A stretch of 34,881 bases of DNA. Origin: a virus. Taxonomy: Duplodnaviria > Caudoviricetes. The stretch lies in the IMG/VR virus record IMGVR_UViG_3300037461_001799, positions 1 through 34,881 of that record. One strand, 5' to 3'. The position numbers and the translations under genes were made by a program. The notes under the pieces were generated by a model. That model saw only the letters and a program-made list of their open reading frames with translations, did no database searches and was not told where the DNA came from. Shown here in pieces: positions 12,051-33,644 of this stretch; the first letter of the stretch is position 1; each line of letters begins with the position of its first letter.

Positions 12051-12392
12051 ATGAATGAACATTATACTATCTATGACGCCGGGTGGATTATGGCCAAAAA
12101 TTTATGGCCAGAATACCAGGTATCAATCTTATGCAAGGCTGAAGTGGGTAAAAACAAAAAAGGTATTGACGCGTACTTTGACGCTTATAGAGCACTAGAA
12201 TATGAAGGTCTAACGTACAATAAGATAGATACAGATCATATATTTCTATATGATGATGGAGAACAAGAGCCTTTTTTGATTTTTGAAAGATCTGACGGGA
12301 GACGTATGGCTGTATGGGTTAGCAGTCTAACTTTGGACAGTTTGTCGAAAATAGATGATTTTATTGCAATCGAGTCCATAATATTGGAATGA
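12051..12392 (+). CDS. Hypothetical protein
   Basis: 113 aa ORF in otherwise unoccupied space; TATATT 5 nt before the ATG. Confidence 0.65.
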   Translation: MNEHYTIYDAGWIMAKNLWPEYQVSILCKAEVGKNKKGIDAYFDAYRALEYEGLTYNKIDTDHIFLYDDGEQEPFLIFERSDGRRMAVWVSSLTLDSLSKIDDFIAIESIILE

Positions 12393-12400
12393 GAGCGAAG

Positions 12401-12688
12401 CTAATGCTCGTAACAAAGGGCCGATTCAGCGGCATGGGAAAAGGCGCCCGACCCAAAACTGGCACGATGAATATGTAGAGCAACTATCCGCCGATGCTCG
12501 GCCGGGAGCGTATTCAAGCATCGGCGGATAGTGTCGACCATGCGTTGCACATCCTTACCGCAAGTTCTCACCTCACAAAGAAGCGCGTCCATCTTGCCAC
12601 TTTCGGTGAAATTTCTTACCGCTTCACCCGCGTTGTCATCGATCGGTTTGTTTAAGAGCCTTTGTTGCCAAAGATAGGTTGTTGGCAT
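12401..12688 (-). CDS. Hypothetical protein
   Basis: 95 aa; GGGGA SD-like sequence upstream; converges on the 12051 gene. Confidence 0.55.
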   Translation of the reverse strand: MPTTYLWQQRLLNKPIDDNAGEAVRNFTESGKMDALLCEVRTCGKDVQRMVDTIRRCLNTLPAEHRRIVALHIHRASFGSGAFSHAAESALCYEH

Positions 12689-12747
12689 AGTTAATCCCCA
12701 GTTTTAACATTAGGAGTGTGGTGTATTCCACGACATGGTTAACCACA

Positions 12748-13482
12748 TCATAAAGAACTAAAATCTGGTCCAGTAACAATTTTTGGCTCTAAAACCGGTG
12801 ACGCCATAGGAACATTTTCATGTGGATCTGATGGAATAGACCAGTCAACCTGGTCAATACAGCACTCAGCTAAAAAACGATTAGCTCTGCTAAAAGGCCT
12901 GGATCCAAAAAATCCGCGACTAGCACTCATTGGAGATGGATGAGAACTCATAATCAATATGTGCCGGCCATTTATAGATCCAGCTTTGCTTTGTGCATGT
13001 CGACCCCATAAAACGAAAGCCACGGGTTGTCTACGAGCACTAAGGATATTTATGACAGTATCCGTGAATGTCTCCCAACCCTTTCCCACATGAGACATGG
13101 GCTTCCCAGCGCGAACAGTCAGTGTTGTATTTAGAAGAAGTACACCACGACAGGCCCAGGCAGTTAAACAGCCATGTATCGGTGGTGTGACCCCGATATC
13201 AGACTTCAACTCTTGGTATATATTAACTAGGCTAGGCGGGATGGGAGCCCCAGGCCGGACGCTAAAAGCTAAACCATGCGCTTGTCCTGAGCCATGATAA
13301 GGATCCTGTCCAAGAATAACAACTCTCACACAGTTCAATGGAGTTTCAAACGCTGCAAGCATATGTTGATGGGGTGGATAAACCTGATAAACCCGCCGTT
13401 CATCACGAATAAATTGTTCGAGCTGTTGAAAATACGGTTTATATAACTCTTCAGACAGAGCTTCTTTCCAAGTTTCATGCAT
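12748..13482 (-). CDS. ung: Uracil-DNA glycosylase, family 1
   Basis: GQDPYH, AHGLAFSV, PPSLVNIYQEL, GVLLLNTTLTV, LWG, HPSPMS motifs. ATG at 13482 preferred over GTG 13491. Confidence 0.95.
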   Translation of the reverse strand: MHETWKEALSEELYKPYFQQLEQFIRDERRVYQVYPPHQHMLAAFETPLNCVRVVILGQDPYHGSGQAHGLAFSVRPGAPIPPSLVNIYQELKSDIGVTPPIHGCLTAWACRGVLLLNTTLTVRAGKPMSHVGKGWETFTDTVINILSARRQPVAFVLWGRHAQSKAGSINGRHILIMSSHPSPMSASRGFFGSRPFSRANRFLAECCIDQVDWSIPSDPHENVPMASPVLEPKIVTGPDFSSL

Positions 13483-13512
13483 AAGGAACACTACATCTAC
13501 TAGATTAGTATG

Positions 13513-13548
13513 CTACAGTTGCTTCGTACGTCGATCAAGACGAAATTT
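13513..13548 (-). repeat. Copy 1 of a 36-bp imperfect direct repeat (orphan duplicate of the 3' end of the 14573..16444 gene)
   Basis: 13531-13548 tcgatcaagacgaaattt is identical to 14591-14608. Minus-strand translation KFRLDRRTKQL* versus KFRLDRNIKQP* in the gene. Confidence 0.85.
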
Positions 13549-13592
13549 AATTATATATCGGAAATTCGAAAGATGGTCAAGTAGTGCCCGAA

Positions 13593-14018
13593 ATGAAGAT
13601 CATTTTTCTCGATATAGATGGAGTGATGAATTCAGGCCTCTACATTGACCCCTTAGATAAAGGGTCAATGCTTGTTGAGGAACACATGTCCATACTAAAC
13701 CGCATAGTGCTACATCCAAACGTCGGCGTTGTAATAACATCAGCGCATCGGCTTGGACGATCTTTAAAAGATCTGTCAGAAGAATTTCGTGAGGCCGGGT
13801 TCATCGGGAATATCGTCGGAAAAACACCGAGCCTAGGGGCTGGACGTCCAATCGAAATAGCTGTCTTCCTCGAAAGTCACCCATCTGTTGATTCGTACGT
13901 CATTCTGGACGATATGAACAACATGGGGAATTTATCTAATAAACTGGTGTGTACATATCCGACAGGCCTAAAGTCGGAACACATCGAGCCTGTATTAGCT
14001 CAACTTGGCTTATGCTAA
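13593..14018 (+). CDS. HAD-superfamily protein (Swiss-Army-knife RNA-repair-like HAD domain)
   Basis: MKIIFLDIDGVMN motif I, VVITSAHR motif II, YVILDD motif IV. Confidence 0.8.
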   Translation: MKIIFLDIDGVMNSGLYIDPLDKGSMLVEEHMSILNRIVLHPNVGVVITSAHRLGRSLKDLSEEFREAGFIGNIVGKTPSLGAGRPIEIAVFLESHPSVDSYVILDDMNNMGNLSNKLVCTYPTGLKSEHIEPVLAQLGLC

Positions 14019-14040
14019 TCCAATTCGTCAGTTTCCAACT

Positions 14041-14535
14041 TCAGAAAGGCTGACATCTCCTACCGGACTCTATCTTCATCGCGTTCCTTGGGTTCTTTTC
14101 ATCCGTCAACAGCTCATACGTTTCCCAAGCAAGCTTCGTGAATGCATCATGCCAGTCATACGCCCAGTTATTCATATTTTCAATCATAGTATTTGGATTA
14201 AGAATCTCCTGCCTGGAAACCCTGTCAATTTTAGACTTGACACTTGATAAGTCAGCGCCAGGAAACCTTTCCTTGACCTGCTTCAACAGAGAATTAATAT
14301 CAGCTAGTAATTCGTTCTTCAAAGACTTCAGACGCCTAATTATGAAATCTGACAGATCATATATAGATCCATGCAGCTGTTGTATGAACGCATCATGCTT
14401 TTGCATGAGCTGTTGAAATGATTCCTTGAGAGTTGGATCTAGTATAAGAAGTTTTTTAATATCCTGCTGATCCACATGATCAAATGCGCGACGAGTCCCA
14501 AACGCAACACGTCCCGCAATTCGCGCAATATTCAT
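14041..14535 (-). CDS. Hypothetical helical protein
   Basis: 164 aa, begins MNIARIAGRVA; preceded by the putative late motif. Confidence 0.65.
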   Translation of the reverse strand: MNIARIAGRVAFGTRRAFDHVDQQDIKKLLILDPTLKESFQQLMQKHDAFIQQLHGSIYDLSDFIIRRLKSLKNELLADINSLLKQVKERFPGADLSSVKSKIDRVSRQEILNPNTMIENMNNWAYDWHDAFTKLAWETYELLTDEKNPRNAMKIESGRRCQPF

Positions 14536-14572: not shown

Positions 14573-14608
14573 TCATGGTTGCTTGATATTTCGATCAAGA
14601 CGAAATTT
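14573..14608 (-). repeat. Copy 2 of the 36-bp direct repeat (3' end of nuclease-Mom gene)
   Basis: Offset exactly 1060 bp from copy 1; stop codons align. Confidence 0.85.
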
Positions 14609-16444
14609 GGTTTTTGATTTCCCGAATGCCTTCACATATCCAAATTTCAGTGCGTATTCCGCTTCTTTGAGACCATTTCTTTTAGCATGATCATATAATG
14701 TCTTTTTGTGTATCACAAAACCATCTGGACTAATGTAATGGTAGTCAGCTGGAACAGTGTGAACCTGTTTCCAATTTGCTGCCTTATAAATTGTGCCAAT
14801 GTGTCCAAACGTAGAATCAGAAAAACTAATTAAAGAGTTCACATCTGGAAAAGTCATAAACACTTGTCTTGTACACCGAGATATAAACCATGATGCTAAA
14901 TTTTTCTTCTGATAATTTGGATGAATACAGAATCTGTCTAACTCTAGCACTTGTTTAGCAAACAAACCCATAGATGTGGCGGATTCATTTCGCATTGGAG
15001 AACAAAACTTGCATACACCAATAAGTGTGTCCTCGAGGAAAACCCCATAAACTACTTTCGCAGACCTTCCGAATCCTGCATAATGGAATGACTGCAAAAA
15101 TTCTTCGGCATGGGAATAATATGACTTATCAACTACCACCGACATATCCATCTGCCTAATACTTAAATCATCAAATAAGAAATCAGTCTGATGATCCGTT
15201 CCGTTATCATCATTCTCAAACAGTGCGTTAATCAGCTTATGACGAATCAAATTTGGATTGAGAAAATCCCGCTCCCACAAGTATAAAACACGATATTCCG
15301 GAAAGTAGTTGTCAATATAACTAAACTTGGCAGCGTCTCGATTTTTACGTAAAGAATGCCAATACTCTCCATTGCATTCAATTAGAATGTTGTGTGTTGG
15401 GATCAACAGATCAAATTCGAAATACCCAACAACATGATGGCGCACATATGGAATTTTAAGAGTGTCAAGCAAAGTTTGGGTAGTACGCTCAAGAATACTA
15501 TCCTTCCCATTGGCAAGCATGTTTGCCCGACTGACAGCCTGCTTCTCTCTAAAAGTATCGTCATTCCATCTCTGTTTAGATAAAGCTGAGACACGAGCCC
15601 TGTAATCTGGATTTTCCCAAGCCTTCTTTATTCCATCGACAATAGCCTTCCTGACTGATGGGTTATTCCATTGTAATTTTGCATTTTCAGATTTTAAAGC
15701 ACACAGTGCAGGGTCGGCTGCGGCTCGAGCCTGCTTATCTAAATATTCCGGATTCTTCCATAAAGCGGATACTTTAGATGATATTTCTTTCCGCAACTCT
15801 GAATTGTTAGCCCAAAATTCTTTTATCGACTCGGATATATGTTGACGGTATTCCGGGTCTTCAAACCTTTTAAGGGCAAGCTGCCGTTGCAATTCTACGT
15901 GTTCAGCTGAAGCTTTAACAGTACGTTGACGCTCAACATATTCTGGATTTTGCCACATTTTACGAGCGGCATCCATACGAGCTTGCTTTACATTAGGATC
16001 ATCAATAGCACGCTCATATTTAGCCCTAAATTCACTGTCTTCCCATAGTTTTGTGATTGTAGCAGAAGCCTGCTGCCTCTTTGCCTGATCGTCCCAAGCC
16101 TCTTTAGAAGCATTTGTTAAGTGTTGTCTGAAATCATCATCAGACCACATACTCTTGGAAATCTCGGACTGGCGTTCTCGCCGCTCTGGTGACCATGACT
16201 GAACTATTCCATCACGGTGCTTCTCTTTATAAGCTGCGTCTTGATGTTTCGCTTTCATTCCACATGATAAACATCTATAATGCCCAACACGTTTCATTGT
16301 GCGGAGAATTGAGCTGATTTTTAGTTCAGCTTCAGCACCACAAGGGCAGACGACTGTTATGACTGAATTTCGGTTATAAGGAGGAGAACCCGAATTTTTA
16401 ATAATTGAAACATGAATGCCAAATTCTTCTAAATTTTTACTCAT
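14573..16444 (-). CDS. Fusion: Zn-ribbon + W-x-[DN]-P-E-[YF]-R helical repeats + Vsr/DUF559-like endonuclease + Mom-like GNAT domain (copy A)
   Basis: CPCG...CLSC; about 10 repeats such as WQNPEYVER and WENPDYRAR; FDLLIPTHNILIECNGEYWH; FHYAG...LELDRFC...NLASWFISR...LISFSD...GTIYKAANW. Confidence 0.75.
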   Translation of the reverse strand: MSKNLEEFGIHVSIIKNSGSPPYNRNSVITVVCPCGAEAELKISSILRTMKRVGHYRCLSCGMKAKHQDAAYKEKHRDGIVQSWSPERRERQSEISKSMWSDDDFRQHLTNASKEAWDDQAKRQQASATITKLWEDSEFRAKYERAIDDPNVKQARMDAARKMWQNPEYVERQRTVKASAEHVELQRQLALKRFEDPEYRQHISESIKEFWANNSELRKEISSKVSALWKNPEYLDKQARAAADPALCALKSENAKLQWNNPSVRKAIVDGIKKAWENPDYRARVSALSKQRWNDDTFREKQAVSRANMLANGKDSILERTTQTLLDTLKIPYVRHHVVGYFEFDLLIPTHNILIECNGEYWHSLRKNRDAAKFSYIDNYFPEYRVLYLWERDFLNPNLIRHKLINALFENDDNGTDHQTDFLFDDLSIRQMDMSVVVDKSYYSHAEEFLQSFHYAGFGRSAKVVYGVFLEDTLIGVCKFCSPMRNESATSMGLFAKQVLELDRFCIHPNYQKKNLASWFISRCTRQVFMTFPDVNSLISFSDSTFGHIGTIYKAANWKQVHTVPADYHYISPDGFVIHKKTLYDHAKRNGLKEAEYALKFGYVKAFGKSKTKFRLDRNIKQP

Positions 16445-16479: not shown

Positions 16480-17259
16480 TTATTCAATTGTAACAATTTG
16501 TGCATCACCACGGTCAACAAATTGAGGGAGCTGCACCTCGTGCAGTATGTTAAAGTGTTTGTCGCTTATGGCGAAGAATACAGTCCAGTATTTGGCATAT
16601 CTGGACGTGTTGATCGCCTCGTTAATAATCTCATTGATTTTTCTACGAGCGTCCTCACAGTCCAAATCTATTCCGTCTTTACGCATATACATCTGTGCTT
16701 TAACTTGCTCTTCGCGGGCTTCTTCAGAAATCAATTCTTTGATCTTGGCCAATGAACGGAAAAAACGGTGTCTAACTCTCCCCTGAGTCAGATTCATCTG
16801 TTTAGCAATTTCAGACTGACATGTGGTTTCATACATACGCCACATAATCTCTCGATCTTGATCCACAAATTTTGGGCCAAGCTCAAGCTCAAATTGTTCA
16901 TGAACTAATTCAGGAATGGTTCGCAAAAATTGGATACGTCGGATACCGCGATGTAACCTATACGACACGGCTGCTTGAGTAATACGAAATAACTTAGCGA
17001 TCTGCTCCTGTTTCATACGATCTCTGTAATATAAGGTAATGAGGTCCGCCTCCCTCGCTGGGATTCTGTCCAAGTACCCCCCTATTAAATTAAAGTTTGG
17101 AAGAGAAGCTTCACTTATTTCCTCTTCATCATCCGGGGCAAGATTTTGTTCAATAAGTTCGTCAATATCCAGTTCATCACCGTTCCATCCCAGTCTGTCA
17201 CGGTTACTGAATCTGGTAGACAAGTCATTTGGATCTTGTACTAAAATGTAGTTAGACAT
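16480..17259 (-). CDS. Transcription regulator with two tandem sigma-70 region-4-like HTH domains
   Basis: IPAREADLITLYYRDRMKQEQIAKLFRITQAAVSYRLHRGIRRI and DQDREIMWRMYETTCQSEIAKQMNLTQGRVRHRFFRSLAKIKE. Confidence 0.75.
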   Translation of the reverse strand: MSNYILVQDPNDLSTRFSNRDRLGWNGDELDIDELIEQNLAPDDEEEISEASLPNFNLIGGYLDRIPAREADLITLYYRDRMKQEQIAKLFRITQAAVSYRLHRGIRRIQFLRTIPELVHEQFELELGPKFVDQDREIMWRMYETTCQSEIAKQMNLTQGRVRHRFFRSLAKIKELISEEAREEQVKAQMYMRKDGIDLDCEDARRKINEIINEAINTSRYAKYWTVFFAISDKHFNILHEVQLPQFVDRGDAQIVTIE

Positions 17260-20826: not shown

Positions 20827-22524
20827 CTAAATATGTTCAGGGTCCAAAAAGATCCTTCGGATTGGTCTATCAAGCCTGAATTTCGTTTTTTCTTTACCCA
20901 TAACTCGGTTATACCCGAATTTTTCTGCATAGTCACGTTCTCGCATCCCCATGCGAGAGGCATGACCATACAACGTCTTTTTGTGCATCATCCATCCATC
21001 CTGATTTACATAGAAGTAGTCTGGGGCAATTACTGAAACCTGTGTCCACCCACAAGACATGTATATTGTGCCACGGTGTCCATATGTTGCATCTGCAAAT
21101 GAAACCAGAGTTTCAACTTTAGGATAGACGCTAAAAATTGTTTTGCAACATCTACTAATAAACCAAGAAGCAAAATTTTTCTTATGTCGATTTGGATGAA
21201 TGCACATTCTATCAAGTTCCAAAACTTGACCAAATGATAATCCCATAGAAGTCGCCACCTCTTTACGAATCGGCGCAGAAAATTTACAAACAGCGATTAA
21301 CTCGTCGTCGAGAAAAGCTCCGCATATGTGCTTCGCTGCACGGCCGAACTGCCCATAATGAAATGACGACAAGAACTGTCGAGCTGCAGAAACTTCAACG
21401 TTCCGAGTCACTATATGCGAAAAATCAAAATCGTTAAAGTTAACACTATCGAGAGTCCCATATATTACTTGAGACAACTTTTGTCGAATGCATGCTGGGT
21501 TCAAAAAGTCTCTTTCATGAAGATATAGTATCTTAAGGTCTGGACGCGCCTTTTCTGTATACGAGAATTTCGACGCGTCGGCACGCTCAGCTTTTGGCCG
21601 AGCATGCCAGTATTCACCTTGAACTTCAATCACAACGCCATGATCGGGTAGTATAAAATCAAATACATATGGTCCGATGGCCACTTGCTCTTGATACCGT
21701 ATACCCATAGAATCTAAGAGATTACCGGTTACTAGCTCCAAACTGGAACGACGTTTACCAGACAAGAATTCAGACCGCATTTTAGAGAAATCGGTCCTGA
21801 ATTTCTCGTCCTTCCATGGTATTTTTCCAGCGTCAGACAACTTCTGACGATATGCTGGATCCTCGAGCAAGGATTGTAAAACTTGCCTGAACCCGGTATT
21901 CTGGCGTGATCTATACTCTGGATCTGACCATAACGATAAAGCCCGCTGTCGTTTCCGATCTCTGTCTACAGAACTGGCCAGCTTCTGTCGCATTTCCGCC
22001 CCCCAATCAGATTGCCAACGCTCTAACATAAATTTGGACAATAGTGGGGCGTTTTTCGCGTTGGAAGCCGTTATTCGTTTACGAAATTCATCATCAGACC
22101 AAAGCTGACACATAGCTTCTTTAAATTTAGCAGAGAATTGATCATCTTGATGTTTGTCGAGCATAATTTCGGACATCACTAAGCGATGATGTGGAGTCGC
22201 CCACATTTTACGACTCCTTAGACTTTGTCTCTCCTTTGCTTCAGGTTCAGCCCAGTATCGAATACATCCAGAGGCCTGACGTTTTCGATATTCAGGGTCT
22301 TGCCATCTATCCCGAGAAGATTCAGAAATCGGCGTAGCTTCACTGCGTCTACACTCTGCGCACAGGCAATTTCCAAAGGATCGAACTGCGCGCTTTACAC
22401 ATCTGAATGTCGTGATACGTTGTTTTTTACAGGATGGACAAGTTGTGAAGACCTTCGATTTGTCCGTTACTGGTCCAAACTCAGCTAGCGTGTCGGGGAG
22501 GTCTATATACGCCTCAAAATCCAT
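20827..22524 (-). CDS. Fusion: Zn-ribbon + W-x-D-P-E-Y-R repeats + Vsr/DUF559-like endonuclease + Mom-like GNAT domain (copy B)
   Basis: CPSC...CLCAEC; WQDPEYRKR, WSDPEYRSR; FDFILPDHGVVIEVQGEYWH; FHYGQFGR...LELDRMC...NFASWFISR...LVSFAD...GTIYMSCGW. Colinear with copy A. Confidence 0.75.
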   Translation of the reverse strand: MDFEAYIDLPDTLAEFGPVTDKSKVFTTCPSCKKQRITTFRCVKRAVRSFGNCLCAECRRSEATPISESSRDRWQDPEYRKRQASGCIRYWAEPEAKERQSLRSRKMWATPHHRLVMSEIMLDKHQDDQFSAKFKEAMCQLWSDDEFRKRITASNAKNAPLLSKFMLERWQSDWGAEMRQKLASSVDRDRKRQRALSLWSDPEYRSRQNTGFRQVLQSLLEDPAYRQKLSDAGKIPWKDEKFRTDFSKMRSEFLSGKRRSSLELVTGNLLDSMGIRYQEQVAIGPYVFDFILPDHGVVIEVQGEYWHARPKAERADASKFSYTEKARPDLKILYLHERDFLNPACIRQKLSQVIYGTLDSVNFNDFDFSHIVTRNVEVSAARQFLSSFHYGQFGRAAKHICGAFLDDELIAVCKFSAPIRKEVATSMGLSFGQVLELDRMCIHPNRHKKNFASWFISRCCKTIFSVYPKVETLVSFADATYGHRGTIYMSCGWTQVSVIAPDYFYVNQDGWMMHKKTLYGHASRMGMRERDYAEKFGYNRVMGKEKTKFRLDRPIRRIFLDPEHI

Positions 22525-31027: not shown

Positions 31028-31843
31028 TTAAAAGAATTTTTTATAAGTCGTGATCCCATCCAAAATTCTTTTTAAATCCGAACCGCTTATGGATGGGATT
31101 CCGTAAGCAGCCGCTCGTTTACTTTTAGAACTTGAGCTGTTTGCGTCGTCACAAACCAAGAAGGATGTATCCTTTGATACACTGTTAACGGCTTGTCCCC
31201 CAGCAGTTACAATCATTTTCTGCACGGCCTTCCTCGGAGCCCATATATCACCGGTTATACACACTTTTTTGCCACTCAAGGGGCCCAAACGGGTAGACTT
31301 GATATCAAGCACTGAGGCCAGATCGATTAAAACATCTTTTTTTGACGATAAACCAAGGTACACTTGTTTGGCAGTTATCTCTCCCACATTCTGAACAGAC
31401 ACAAGTTGACTTATTGTAAGAGATAAGACTTTATCTATAGTGTCATGGCCAGCTTTTACAATGTCTGTGGCAGTGGTAAGCCCCAAATTTGGGATGTTCA
31501 TTCCAGCGAGAACAACTTCAAGAGGAACTGACATGTTATCGTGAAGTGCTTTCCAACACTTCACAGCCATTTTATGGCCAGAACAATGATTCGCCAGGTC
31601 ATCTATAGACATCTTATATAAGTCAGCTACGGACTTGACTGAATTTGGTTTATCTGAATCGGTAATGGAATCAATGAGCGCATCGCCCCAATGGAGTAAA
31701 CCAAGACGGTCAACCCATGTTTTTACTGCCCCAAACAGTCGAGTCGGGCAGGACTTGGACCGACAGTATAAAAAATCACCATCTATGAGAAGAGAACTAG
31801 AACAAACGGGGCAAGCAGACGGAACACCGAAGTATTCTTTCAT
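31028..31843 (-). CDS. ligA: NAD+-dependent DNA ligase, C-terminal half (Zn finger, HhH, BRCT)
   Basis: CPVC...C...C Zn finger, SVADLY, IPNLG and VQNVG HhH motifs, BRCT LSGKKVCITG...GGQAVNSVSKDTSFLV...SKSKRAAAYGI. Confidence 0.9.
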   Translation of the reverse strand: MKEYFGVPSACPVCSSSLLIDGDFLYCRSKSCPTRLFGAVKTWVDRLGLLHWGDALIDSITDSDKPNSVKSVADLYKMSIDDLANHCSGHKMAVKCWKALHDNMSVPLEVVLAGMNIPNLGLTTATDIVKAGHDTIDKVLSLTISQLVSVQNVGEITAKQVYLGLSSKKDVLIDLASVLDIKSTRLGPLSGKKVCITGDIWAPRKAVQKMIVTAGGQAVNSVSKDTSFLVCDDANSSSSKSKRAAAYGIPSISGSDLKRILDGITTYKKFF

Positions 31844-31867: not shown

Positions 31868-32464
31868 TCATTTCTTTCCTTCTGCTTTCTCGTCGCCTTT
31901 GCTTTTACTCTTTTCCGATTTTTTATCCTTTTCGACTTCACCCTCTTCTGGCGTCTCAAACTCTTCCGGCTCCGGTCCCTCACCCTCTTCTGGCGTCTCA
32001 AACTCTTCCGGCTCCGGTCCCTCACCCTCTTCTGGCGTCTCAAACTCTTCCGGCTCCGGTCCCTCACCCTCTTCTGGCGTCTCAAACTCTTCCGGCTCCG
32101 GTCCCTCACCTTGCTCACCTGCCGAGAAATCAAAGTCCTCAGCGGTCGGTTCTAACCCGGGTGAAAGTTCAGTTCCCTCATTACCAAATTGCTCCTTCTT
32201 ATCCATAGAAAATTCACCGCTGGTGAAAGATTTAGAAAATCTAGATAATGCTTGACCAACATCTCTAACTTTCGTAGAGATACTGTCAAGCTTTACCAAC
32301 TCCGATCCGGCAAAGTCCCCTCGAAGTCTTGCCAGCTTGGCAAACAAGACGTAACTGTCCTTCAAGACATCAGCAACGTATGAGTTGACGCGCTGCCATT
32401 CAGCATCTTCATCAACGGCCGCCACACGTACATCGGTTTCAAAGTCATAATTGGAACGAGCCAT
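31868..32464 (-). CDS. Hypothetical protein with acidic tandem repeat and basic tail
   Basis: 198 aa; AGGAG SD; (EGPEPEEFETPEEG)x4. Confidence 0.8.
   Translation of the reverse strand: MARSNYDFETDVRVAAVDEDAEWQRVNSYVADVLKDSYVLFAKLARLRGDFAGSELVKLDSISTKVRDVGQALSRFSKSFTSGEFSMDKKEQFGNEGTELSPGLEPTAEDFDFSAGEQGEGPEPEEFETPEEGEGPEPEEFETPEEGEGPEPEEFETPEEGEGPEPEEFETPEEGEVEKDKKSEKSKSKGDEKAEGKK
31938..32110. repeat. Perfect 42-bp tandem repeat, 4 copies plus 5 bp
   Basis: Unit tcaccctcttctggcgtctcaaactcttccggctccggtccc starts at 31938, 31980, 32022 and 32064. Confidence 0.95.
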
Positions 32465-32528: not shown

Positions 32529-33644
32529 ATGAATGAAGAGGCAAAATTGTTGGCTGAGGAATTATCCACGTATCGGGAAGCTTATTATAACTTGGAGCCA
32601 ATAGTTCCTGATGATGTTTATGATAAAAAACGGGATAGGTTAAAACAACTGTGCCCGGAACATTTTGAAGTCAAGGCCGTCGGCGCACATCCATCAGTTT
32701 TATCAATTTGGGAAAAAGTCCAGCATGAAATCCCCATGGGATCTTTAGATAAAGTTAAATCCCATGAAGAATTTGACAAATGGGTTGCTAAAATTGGTAT
32801 GACAGATCAAAGTGATTTTGCTATAACCCATAAAATTGACGGTGCTTCACTTGAACTCATATATCAAAAAGGGGAACTTGTCAGAGGGGTAACCAGGGGA
32901 GACGGGTACATCGGCGAAGATATTACATGCAATATCAAAAATATTGCATCAATTCCACAAAAACTGTCGATTGACAATAAACTTCAGCCAATCAATGCGA
33001 CAGTCAGAGGCGAAATTGTTATGCTGAAGGAAATATTCGACCAAAAATATGCAGACAAATACGCAAATCCACGCAATACAGCTTCATCAAAGATGCGGGA
33101 GAAGAAAAACAAAGGGTCTGCCTGCAAAGATATGGAATTTCTTGCCTATTGGATCAAGTCTAATGATAAAATAGATTCAATGGAACTAATGTTTACCTAC
33201 TTAAAACAAATTGGGTTTCAAACGCCCCCGATTTGTCAAGGGCCGGTTAAAATAATTAAAGAGAATTTCATTCATACTGCAATAAATAGAGCATCCCTAC
33301 CGTATGAAATTGACGGGGTGGTAATATCAGTTGCCAGTATACCATTACTCGAAGAATTGGGTGATGTTTCAATGAGACCGAGGGGTCAAATAGCTTGGAA
33401 GTTTGAATCAGAAAAAGCAGAGTCTAGGATACTTGACGTTGTATGGCAAGTTGGATTAACGGGCCGCGTTTGTCCAGTGGCAAAAATTGAACCAACAAAG
33501 ATTGGGGGAGTCACAATTGAAAGTGTATCTTTACATAATTTAAAGATGTTTAAAGAACTGAAATTATTTCGCGGATGTCGTGTGTTAATTGAACGCAGAA
33601 ATGACTGTATTCCATATCTTGCTGAAAATCTAGACAGTGAATAG
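32529..33644 (+). CDS. ligA: NAD+-dependent DNA ligase, N-terminal half (Ia, adenylation, OB domains)
   Basis: AYYNLEPIVPDDVYD, HEIPMGSLDK, HKIDG (KxDG), TRGDG, RGE, NPRN, EIDGVVI, AWKF, QVGLTG, SLHN; ends after RRNDCIP. Confidence 0.93.
   Translation: MNEEAKLLAEELSTYREAYYNLEPIVPDDVYDKKRDRLKQLCPEHFEVKAVGAHPSVLSIWEKVQHEIPMGSLDKVKSHEEFDKWVAKIGMTDQSDFAITHKIDGASLELIYQKGELVRGVTRGDGYIGEDITCNIKNIASIPQKLSIDNKLQPINATVRGEIVMLKEIFDQKYADKYANPRNTASSKMREKKNKGSACKDMEFLAYWIKSNDKIDSMELMFTYLKQIGFQTPPICQGPVKIIKENFIHTAINRASLPYEIDGVVISVASIPLLEELGDVSMRPRGQIAWKFESEKAESRILDVVWQVGLTGRVCPVAKIEPTKIGGVTIESVSLHNLKMFKELKLFRGCRVLIERRNDCIPYLAENLDSE

What the first reader, a model, noticed from the sequence alone, without database searches (positions are those of the whole stretch)
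14573..16444. Endonuclease fused to a Mom-like DNA-modifying GNAT: candidate self-protecting cut-and-modify element (copy A)
Seen: Zn ribbon, about 10 W-x-[DN]-P-E-[YF]-R helical repeats, a Vsr/DUF559-type motif (D...IECNGEYWH), then HY...GVCKF...ELDR...N.ASWFISR...ISFSD...G.IYKAANW...Y...DG...H. Known: that C-terminal pattern matches the phage Mu Mom family, a GNAT-fold adenine-hypermodification enzyme that protects DNA from restriction. Similar helical repeats and Vsr-like nucleases occur in free-standing homing endonucleases. Inference: a single-chain restriction-modification-like or homing element that marks its own genome and cuts unmodified host or competitor DNA, with the repeats acting as a DNA-binding spacer. 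Similar proteins may already be annotated as Hef-like homing endonucleases, so novelty needs checking.
Basis: partly seen in the sequence, partly recalled or inferred. Interest (0 to 1): 0.75.

Follow-up and report, generated by a model that had tools for sequence, protein, structure and literature searches.

The report
Hef-type homing nuclease with Mom domain
An uncultured jumbo phage carries two copies of a gene joining a DNA-cutting domain to a relative of phage Mu's DNA-modifying enzyme Mom; related phages have or lack it at fixed sites, as selfish homing genes do, and it likely marks its own DNA against its own cut, an idea already in print but untested.

Summary
The ORF is real: Zn ribbon, about 10 loose helical repeats, an EDxHD/Vsr-type nuclease (4 of 4 I-Bth0305I active-site residues) and a Mom-family GNAT (Pfam E 2e-24; top fold match Mu Mom 8BV8; 6 of 8 tested Mom residues kept). 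It behaves like a free-standing homing endonuclease. At the site after the sigma-like gene it is present in 15 of 53 non-redundant related loci, scattered over the tree. Two loci hold stumps and six hold unrelated HNH-AP2 nucleases. Complete relatives carry 0 to 13 copies. Hef-like genes of cultured phages share the Vsr+Mom module. The fusion and the cut-and-protect idea are published (PMC7824862), and this scan has met the type before (24 notes, at least 23 genomes). Homing is well supported; the Mom domain's job is untested. Self-protection by adenine modification is my best guess (about 45%): the Mom residues are near-invariant, the same Mom clade is also fused to HNH nucleases and survives without any nuclease, and three rival nucleases at this site bring a methylase-like gene. 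A new member of a known kind and a good test case.

The parts
14573..16444 (-). Copy A, 623 aa: Zn ribbon + helical repeats + EDxHD/Vsr nuclease + Mom GNAT
16247..16363 (-). Zn ribbon, residues 28-66 (C33, C35, C58, C61)
   Evidence: sequence; conservation
15512..16246 (-). Helical repeat array, residues 67-311; fastest-changing region; predicted DNA-binding or spacer role
   Evidence: role inferred
15215..15508 (-). EDxHD/Vsr-type nuclease, residues 313-410 (E319, D345, N358, H363, D370)
14591..15166 (-). Mom-family GNAT, residues 427-618 (H454, Y455, R504, S518, D543, Y553; helical insertion about 571-600)
16480..17259 (-). Conserved sigma-70 region-4-like gene; copy A starts 35 nt after its stop; anchor of the insertion site and candidate target
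   Evidence: target role inferred
20827..22524 (-). Copy B, 565-aa paralog, 34% identical, between the metallopeptidase and DnaX-like genes; also optional in relatives

Best explanation
Copy A is a Zn ribbon-repeat-Vsr-Mom fusion gene that related phages have or lack at one fixed site; it likely spreads as a free-standing homing endonuclease, and its Mom domain would modify adenines at the carrier's own target so that only unmarked rival genomes are cut. Shown: the domains, the conserved active-site residues, and the patchy, site-bound, multi-copy distribution. Inferred: (1) the Zn ribbon and repeats bind a long site near the gene, probably in the sigma-like gene; (2) the nuclease cuts that site in a co-infecting phage lacking the gene, and repair copies the gene across (about 85%); (3) the Mom domain is an active adenine acyltransferase, by analogy with Mu Mom using aminoacyl-tRNA (about 60%); (4) the mark serves as immunity against the fused nuclease (about 45% overall).
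For: Homing. Of 53 non-redundant loci with the sigma-like gene, 15 are filled, 2 hold only a 5' stump, 6 hold HNH-AP2 nucleases and 30 hold none of these. Presence needs 12 changes on the sigma tree (shuffled mean 13.3; at least 8 forced by starred branches), so it is not clustered. A relative with a 79%-identical sigma lacks the gene (L017). Complete relatives G001, G002 and G003 carry 13, 1 and 0 genes. Hef-like genes of Campylobacter phage Los1 and of E. coli phage N2 (between nrdA and nrdB) align over both domains (prob 99.3 and 97.9). Exchange of HEG classes at one site is described in PMC10448857. Active Mom. H454, Y455, R504, S518, D543 and Y553 (Mu H58, Y59, R111, S124, D149, Y159) are kept in 115-119 of 120 homologs. 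21 of 22 paralogs from four relatives keep the H, R and D positions (read by eye). pN 0.08-0.25 against pS 0.63-1.07 in 7 divergent pairs. Link to cutting. 29 of 30 Mom hits in 15 relatives lie in frames of 478 aa or more. The Mom clade holding copy A (98/94 support) includes two HNH fusions and two repeat+Mom proteins without a nuclease. 3 of the 6 HNH-AP2 occupants are followed by a methylase-like ORF.
Against: No activity has been measured. Two residues important in Mu Mom are not kept: R151 (essential) aligns to T545, which is T in 110 of 120 homologs, and W181 aligns to V577. This is softened because stand-alone Mom-like proteins show the same D-S-T-x-G-H motif, but those are untested too. 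The 120 homologs were chosen by similarity, which inflates conservation. The presence pattern cannot tell gains from losses, and the HEG and sigma trees are too poorly resolved to prove transfer; HEG identity tracks sigma identity moderately (rho 0.44-0.57). No target site was identified. One enzyme that both cuts and protects could also protect the rival's site; how that race is biased is not shown. The N2 Hef has N at the D149 position and one paralog (L040) has lost H and R, so some members may work without Mom chemistry.
Confidence: 0.45

Rival explanations
1. Homing endonuclease whose Mom domain is active but works as cargo: it modifies many adenines at a short motif, as Mu Mom does, and shields the phage from host restriction, which helps the selfish gene persist.
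For: Same conserved active site. The closest nuclease-free Mom proteins share the D-S-T-x-G-H motif. Anti-restriction is Mu Mom's known role (PMC13219725, abstract start and passages).
Against: One copy would suffice, yet 21 of 22 paralogs keep the residues, up to 13 per genome. Two of five complete relatives have no Mom hit. The domain almost never stands alone in these phages (29 of 30 hits in long frames).
Confidence: 0.2
2. Homing endonuclease in which the Mom fold is non-catalytic and only binds DNA, flips a base or dimerises the protein; immunity comes from target sequence or from timing.
For: R151 and W181 equivalents are missing. The N2 Hef has D149 replaced by N, and L040 is degenerate. 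Mu Mom is a dimer with a DNA-binding cleft.
Against: The invariant positions are those that line Mu Mom's active site. Repeat+Mom proteins persist without any nuclease (P0143, P0150). No sequence signature of immunity was found in 7 flanking genes (low power).
Confidence: 0.17
3. A single-chain restriction-modification weapon kept for the phage's benefit: it marks the phage genome and degrades host or superinfecting DNA broadly (the reading of PMC7824862).
For: Stated in print for jumbo-phage Mom-REase fusions. Both active sites are intact and the gene lies among replication genes.
Against: Absent from 38 of 53 loci and from complete genomes; stumps and replacement by HNH-AP2 genes at the same site. 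A long, variable N-terminal array and an I-Bth0305I-type nuclease point to a long single target rather than a frequent one.
Confidence: 0.12

Closest known systems
Hef (T4-like phage U5) and Hef-like free-standing homing endonucleases (PHROG 3339, 559)
   Same: Variable N-terminal arm + Vsr-type nuclease + Mom-like tail; intergenic, optional, multi-copy.
   Different: Only 25-28% identity. Its Mom domain falls in another clade, nearer to stand-alone Mom-like proteins, and passes Pfam's Mom cut-off, which the two Hef-like proteins tested do not. The arm is W-helical repeats, not zinc-finger arrays. Hef's own paper could not be read here.
Mom-REase fusions of jumbo phages (Iyer et al. 2021, PMC7824862)
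   Same: Same fusion and same cut-and-protect proposal.
   Different: That paper frames them as restriction systems against host or superinfecting DNA; the site data here favour homing.
Phage Mu Mom (PDB 8BV8; PMC13219725)
   Same: GNAT fold with helical insertion; H58, Y59, R111, S124, D149, Y159 kept.
   Different: About 20% identity; R151 and W181 not kept; fused to a nuclease. Y28 and W48 were not mapped.
I-Bth0305I, EDxHD homing endonuclease family (PDB 3R3P; PMC3239194)
   Same: D196, N208, H213, D222 correspond to D345, N358, H363, D370; repeats lie N-terminal to the nuclease.
   Different: I-Bth0305I is intron-encoded, 266 aa, has NUMOD repeats and ends at the nuclease, with no Mom domain.
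Single-chain Type IIG/IIL restriction-modification enzymes (recalled, e.g. MmeI)
   Same: The proposed logic: one polypeptide cuts unmarked sites and marks its own.
   Different: No SAM-dependent methylase; a GNAT instead. Phage-borne and homing-like. A functional analogy only.

Membership tests
Mom family (PF25680) | Profile and fold match | tested here: met
   86.6 bits against cut-off 27.1; 8BV8 top Foldseek hit
Mom family (PF25680) | Active-site H58, Y59, R111, S124, D149, Y159 | tested here: met
Mom family (PF25680) | R151 (essential in Mu Mom) and W181 | tested here: not met
   T545 and V577. Stand-alone family members also lack R151, so this separates it from Mu Mom, not from the Pfam family.
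Mom family (PF25680) | HTH-like insertion needed for activity | tested here: met
   Aligned; two helices at 580-589 and 594-600 in the model
Mom family (PF25680) | Modifies adenine in dsDNA using Gly-tRNA | not testable with these tools
   needs biochemistry
EDxHD / Vsr-like homing endonucleases | Catalytic D196, N208, H213, D222 of I-Bth0305I | tested here: met
   D345 119/120, N or Q or D at 358 118/120, H363 118/120, D370 117/120
EDxHD / Vsr-like homing endonucleases | Structural match of the nuclease domain to 3R3P or Vsr | tested here: inconclusive
   Sequence match E 1.2e-5. The listed Foldseek hits were all GNATs, and the VIA-align search did not run.
Hef-like free-standing homing endonucleases | Vsr + Mom-like module homologous to Hef-position proteins | tested here: met
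Hef-like free-standing homing endonucleases | Optional intergenic gene at a fixed site, with empty and alternative alleles | tested here: met
Hef-like free-standing homing endonucleases | Co-conversion or target polymorphism in flanking genes | tested here: inconclusive
   Best column p_perm 0.02 in 1 of 7 genes; synonymous sites saturated
Hef-like free-standing homing endonucleases | Site-specific cleavage and biased inheritance in mixed infection | not testable with these tools
   uncultured phage; needs experiment
Type IIG/IIL restriction-modification | SAM-dependent methylase fused to the nuclease | tested here: not met
   No methylase hit; the modifying domain is a GNAT

The most novel reading that the evidence does not exclude
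Hef-type genes are homing endonucleases with epigenetic self-immunity: a repeat array steers both a nuclease and a tRNA-dependent adenine acyltransferase to one long site, so the carrier is protected by a chemical mark rather than by a changed target sequence. The Mom module can be moved between unrelated nucleases and left behind as an orphan shield, which would also make it a naturally targetable DNA acyltransferase.
Probability: 0.35. Interest if true: 0.75.

Novelty: new member of a known kind. Interest (0 to 1): 0.33.

Why it matters
Hef-like modules occur in hundreds of phage records (416) and are annotated only as nucleases. If their Mom domain writes a protective mark, homing and restriction-modification would be joined in one protein, phage DNA would carry site-specific hypermodifications that bulk nucleoside analysis could miss, and a targetable DNA acyltransferase would be available. 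This subfamily suits the test because its Mom domain is closer to canonical Mom than that of classic Hef and natural nuclease-free versions exist. The architecture and the idea are not new.

Tried and rejected
Target or immunity signature: per-column association of presence with flanking DNA. Sigma (14 filled vs 36 empty after thinning at 90%) gave one wobble column, nt 45 (10 of 14 vs 4 of 36; 4 of 200 permutations as low), which the window itself does not share. Six other genes gave permutation fractions 0.10-0.71. Rejected as not robust over 7 genes; power is low.

HEG tree against sigma tree on 13 loci: mostly unresolved; only L116 differs between starred sets; no AU test was run.

dN/dS: mostly undefined because synonymous sites are saturated; where defined among divergent pairs, 0.06-0.11.

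Repeat-region homolog search returned 7 proteins, none informative about other nuclease partners. NCBIfam gave nothing over a cut-off. The GerD and STI1 hits on the repeats are below cut-off and treated as helical look-alikes. The BFVD search found nothing specific for the repeats.

Reads: no contig skips copy A or B in 4 runs. An RNA library holds 99%-identical contigs over the gene and its neighbours, which does not show transcription. Runs X3 and X4 hold small shares only.

The wide structural search did not run, so the nuclease fold rests on sequence and motif. PMC3763549 turned out to be an unrelated paper. The Hef paper (Sandegren 2005) is not held. No complex prediction was run, as no binding claim is made.

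Full report
Observation. The ORF at 14573-16444 (minus strand, 623 aa) is intact. The window is a fragment of a large uncultured phage: portal, terminase, sigma-like factor, DnaX, primase, RecD2 and ligase genes. Its terminase is 44% identical to an uncultured 485-kb phage and 26% to the nearest cultured one. Complete relatives are 362-436 kb. A paralog, copy B, lies at 20827-22524 and is 34% identical.

Domains. Residues 28-66 hold four cysteines conserved in at least 90% of 52 aligned proteins. AlphaFold2 predicts a chain of about 15 kinked helices (mean pLDDT 85; pTM 0.45, so domain packing is undefined). This arm is the fastest-changing part: mean identity 39% among same-site orthologs, against 66% for each catalytic domain. 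Residues 313-410 match I-Bth0305I (3R3P, E 1.2e-5), with D196, N208, H213 and D222 (PMC3239194, passages) present as D345, N358, H363 and D370. Residues 427-618 are a Mom-family GNAT: Pfam E 2.4e-24, and 8BV8 is the top hit by sequence and by fold for a model of pLDDT 92. Of the 8 activity-relevant Mu Mom residues I could map from PMC13219725 (section 13 read whole), six are kept and near-invariant in the 120 best of 173 homologs (115-119 of 120). R151 and W181 are not kept. W48 was outside the alignment. Stand-alone Mom-like proteins also lack R151: 3 of 3 from cultured phages, and the nearest nuclease-free group reads D-S-T-x-G-H like copy A. The paper's main supplement, which aligns active Mom homologs, could not be read; it may bear on whether R151 is needed outside Mu.

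Distribution. I collected loci by the neighbouring sigma-like gene, independently of copy A. I kept those at 48% identity or more with enough downstream DNA (87 rows), and removed duplicates to 53. Fifteen, the window included, carry the Vsr-Mom gene directly after the sigma stop. Two carry only a 5' stump (L084, L085). Six carry unrelated HNH-AP2 nuclease genes, three of them followed by a methylase-like ORF (below Pfam's N6_N4_Mtase cut-off). Thirty carry none of these. Presence needs 12 changes on the sigma tree, no fewer than chance (shuffled mean 13.3). Copy B's site is filled only in the window and two other contigs (L022/L078, L084/L167). By protein search, complete G001, G002 and G003 hold 13, 1 and 0 genes. 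By the Pfam model, five complete relatives give 8, 1, 0, 0 and 5 hits; this model misses classic Hef tails. Optional presence at fixed intergenic sites, decay and replacement by another nuclease class are the pattern of free-standing homing endonucleases (PMC2988022 and PMC10448857, passages). Against this: gains cannot be told from losses, the HEG and sigma trees are too weak to prove transfer, and no target signature was found.

What the Mom domain does. It is not a relic: 21 of 22 paralogs from four relatives keep the H, R and D positions (read by eye), and non-synonymous change is far below synonymous change. It is tied to nucleases: 29 of 30 Mom hits in 15 relatives lie in frames of 478 aa or more. 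In a 37-row tree (2 candidate rows missed by the pattern, one added back by hand), copy A's Mom clade (13 rows, support 98/94) contains Vsr fusions, two HNH fusions and two repeat+Mom proteins without a nuclease. A modifying domain that is conserved across unrelated nucleases, outlives them, and is paralleled by methylase-like genes behind rival nucleases at the same site is most simply a protective mark. This is inference. From memory, not from any call: the Hef paper reported that Hef cuts hef-containing as well as hef-less DNA in vitro, which would fit immunity by modification; that paper is not held and I saw only its title in reference lists.

Comparison with what is known. Phage searches return Hef-like homing endonucleases of Campylobacter phages over both domains. 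The Los1 module finds 416 phage records. An E. coli phage N2 gene between nrdA and nrdB, the position Hef's paper title implies (it replaces mobE), aligns to this family over both domains. Six literature searches found no experimental test of a nuclease-fused Mom domain; the library lacks most subscription papers. PMC2993671 and PMC3296691 (passages) list Hef-like genes as a HEG class; PMC2790892 gave only a reference hit. Earlier notes of this scan report the same gene type 24 times in at least 23 genomes, none on this genome or sequence. I read them after writing down my reading, and they are not independent evidence.

Verdict. The feature is real and the domains were read correctly. It is a new member of a known kind: a Hef-type free-standing homing endonuclease with an unusually canonical Mom domain. 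Homing about 85%; Mom catalytically active about 60%; self-immunity as its purpose about 45%. Interest 0.33; 0.75 if epigenetic self-immunity is shown.

Noticed in passing
L022:10855-13199, L092:6822-9166, L138/L149 (site after the sigma-like gene): A double HNH-AP2 nuclease gene followed, with overlapping stop and start in L022 and L092, by an amino-methylase-like ORF occupies the same site as copy A: a second nuclease-plus-modifier cassette.
   Followed up: partly
L032:1483-3126 (-), L035:418-2049 (+), genome G001: Mom domains of copy A's clade fused to tandem HNH nucleases instead of Vsr.
   Followed up: yes
P0143, P0150: Repeat array joined directly to a Mom domain with no nuclease between; candidate orphan protective enzymes.
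   Followed up: partly
L084:6846-7298 and L085, after the sigma-like gene: 5' stumps of the copy A family without nuclease or Mom.
   Followed up: partly
G001-G015: Copy number is clumped (Pfam Mom hits 8,1,0,1,5,0,5,0,6,0,0,2,1,0,1; ten genomes incomplete). This could reflect cross-protection among copies or a general tolerance of homing genes.
   Followed up: no
window 31028-31843 (-) and 32529-33644 (+): An NAD-dependent DNA ligase is in two ORFs on opposite strands (adenylation+OB; HhH+BRCT), with another gene between them.
   Followed up: no
window 31868-32464 (-): An acidic protein with about four exact 15-residue tandem repeats.
   Followed up: no
window 12051-14535: A variable cargo stretch after copy A (uracil-DNA glycosylase, HAD phosphatase, unknown ORFs) without matches in the related loci.
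   Followed up: partly
L017, L005, L002, L022 (terminase and neighbouring genes): TerL and other conserved genes are interrupted by 1-2 kb inserts in several relatives, suggesting introns or further mobile genes.
   Followed up: no
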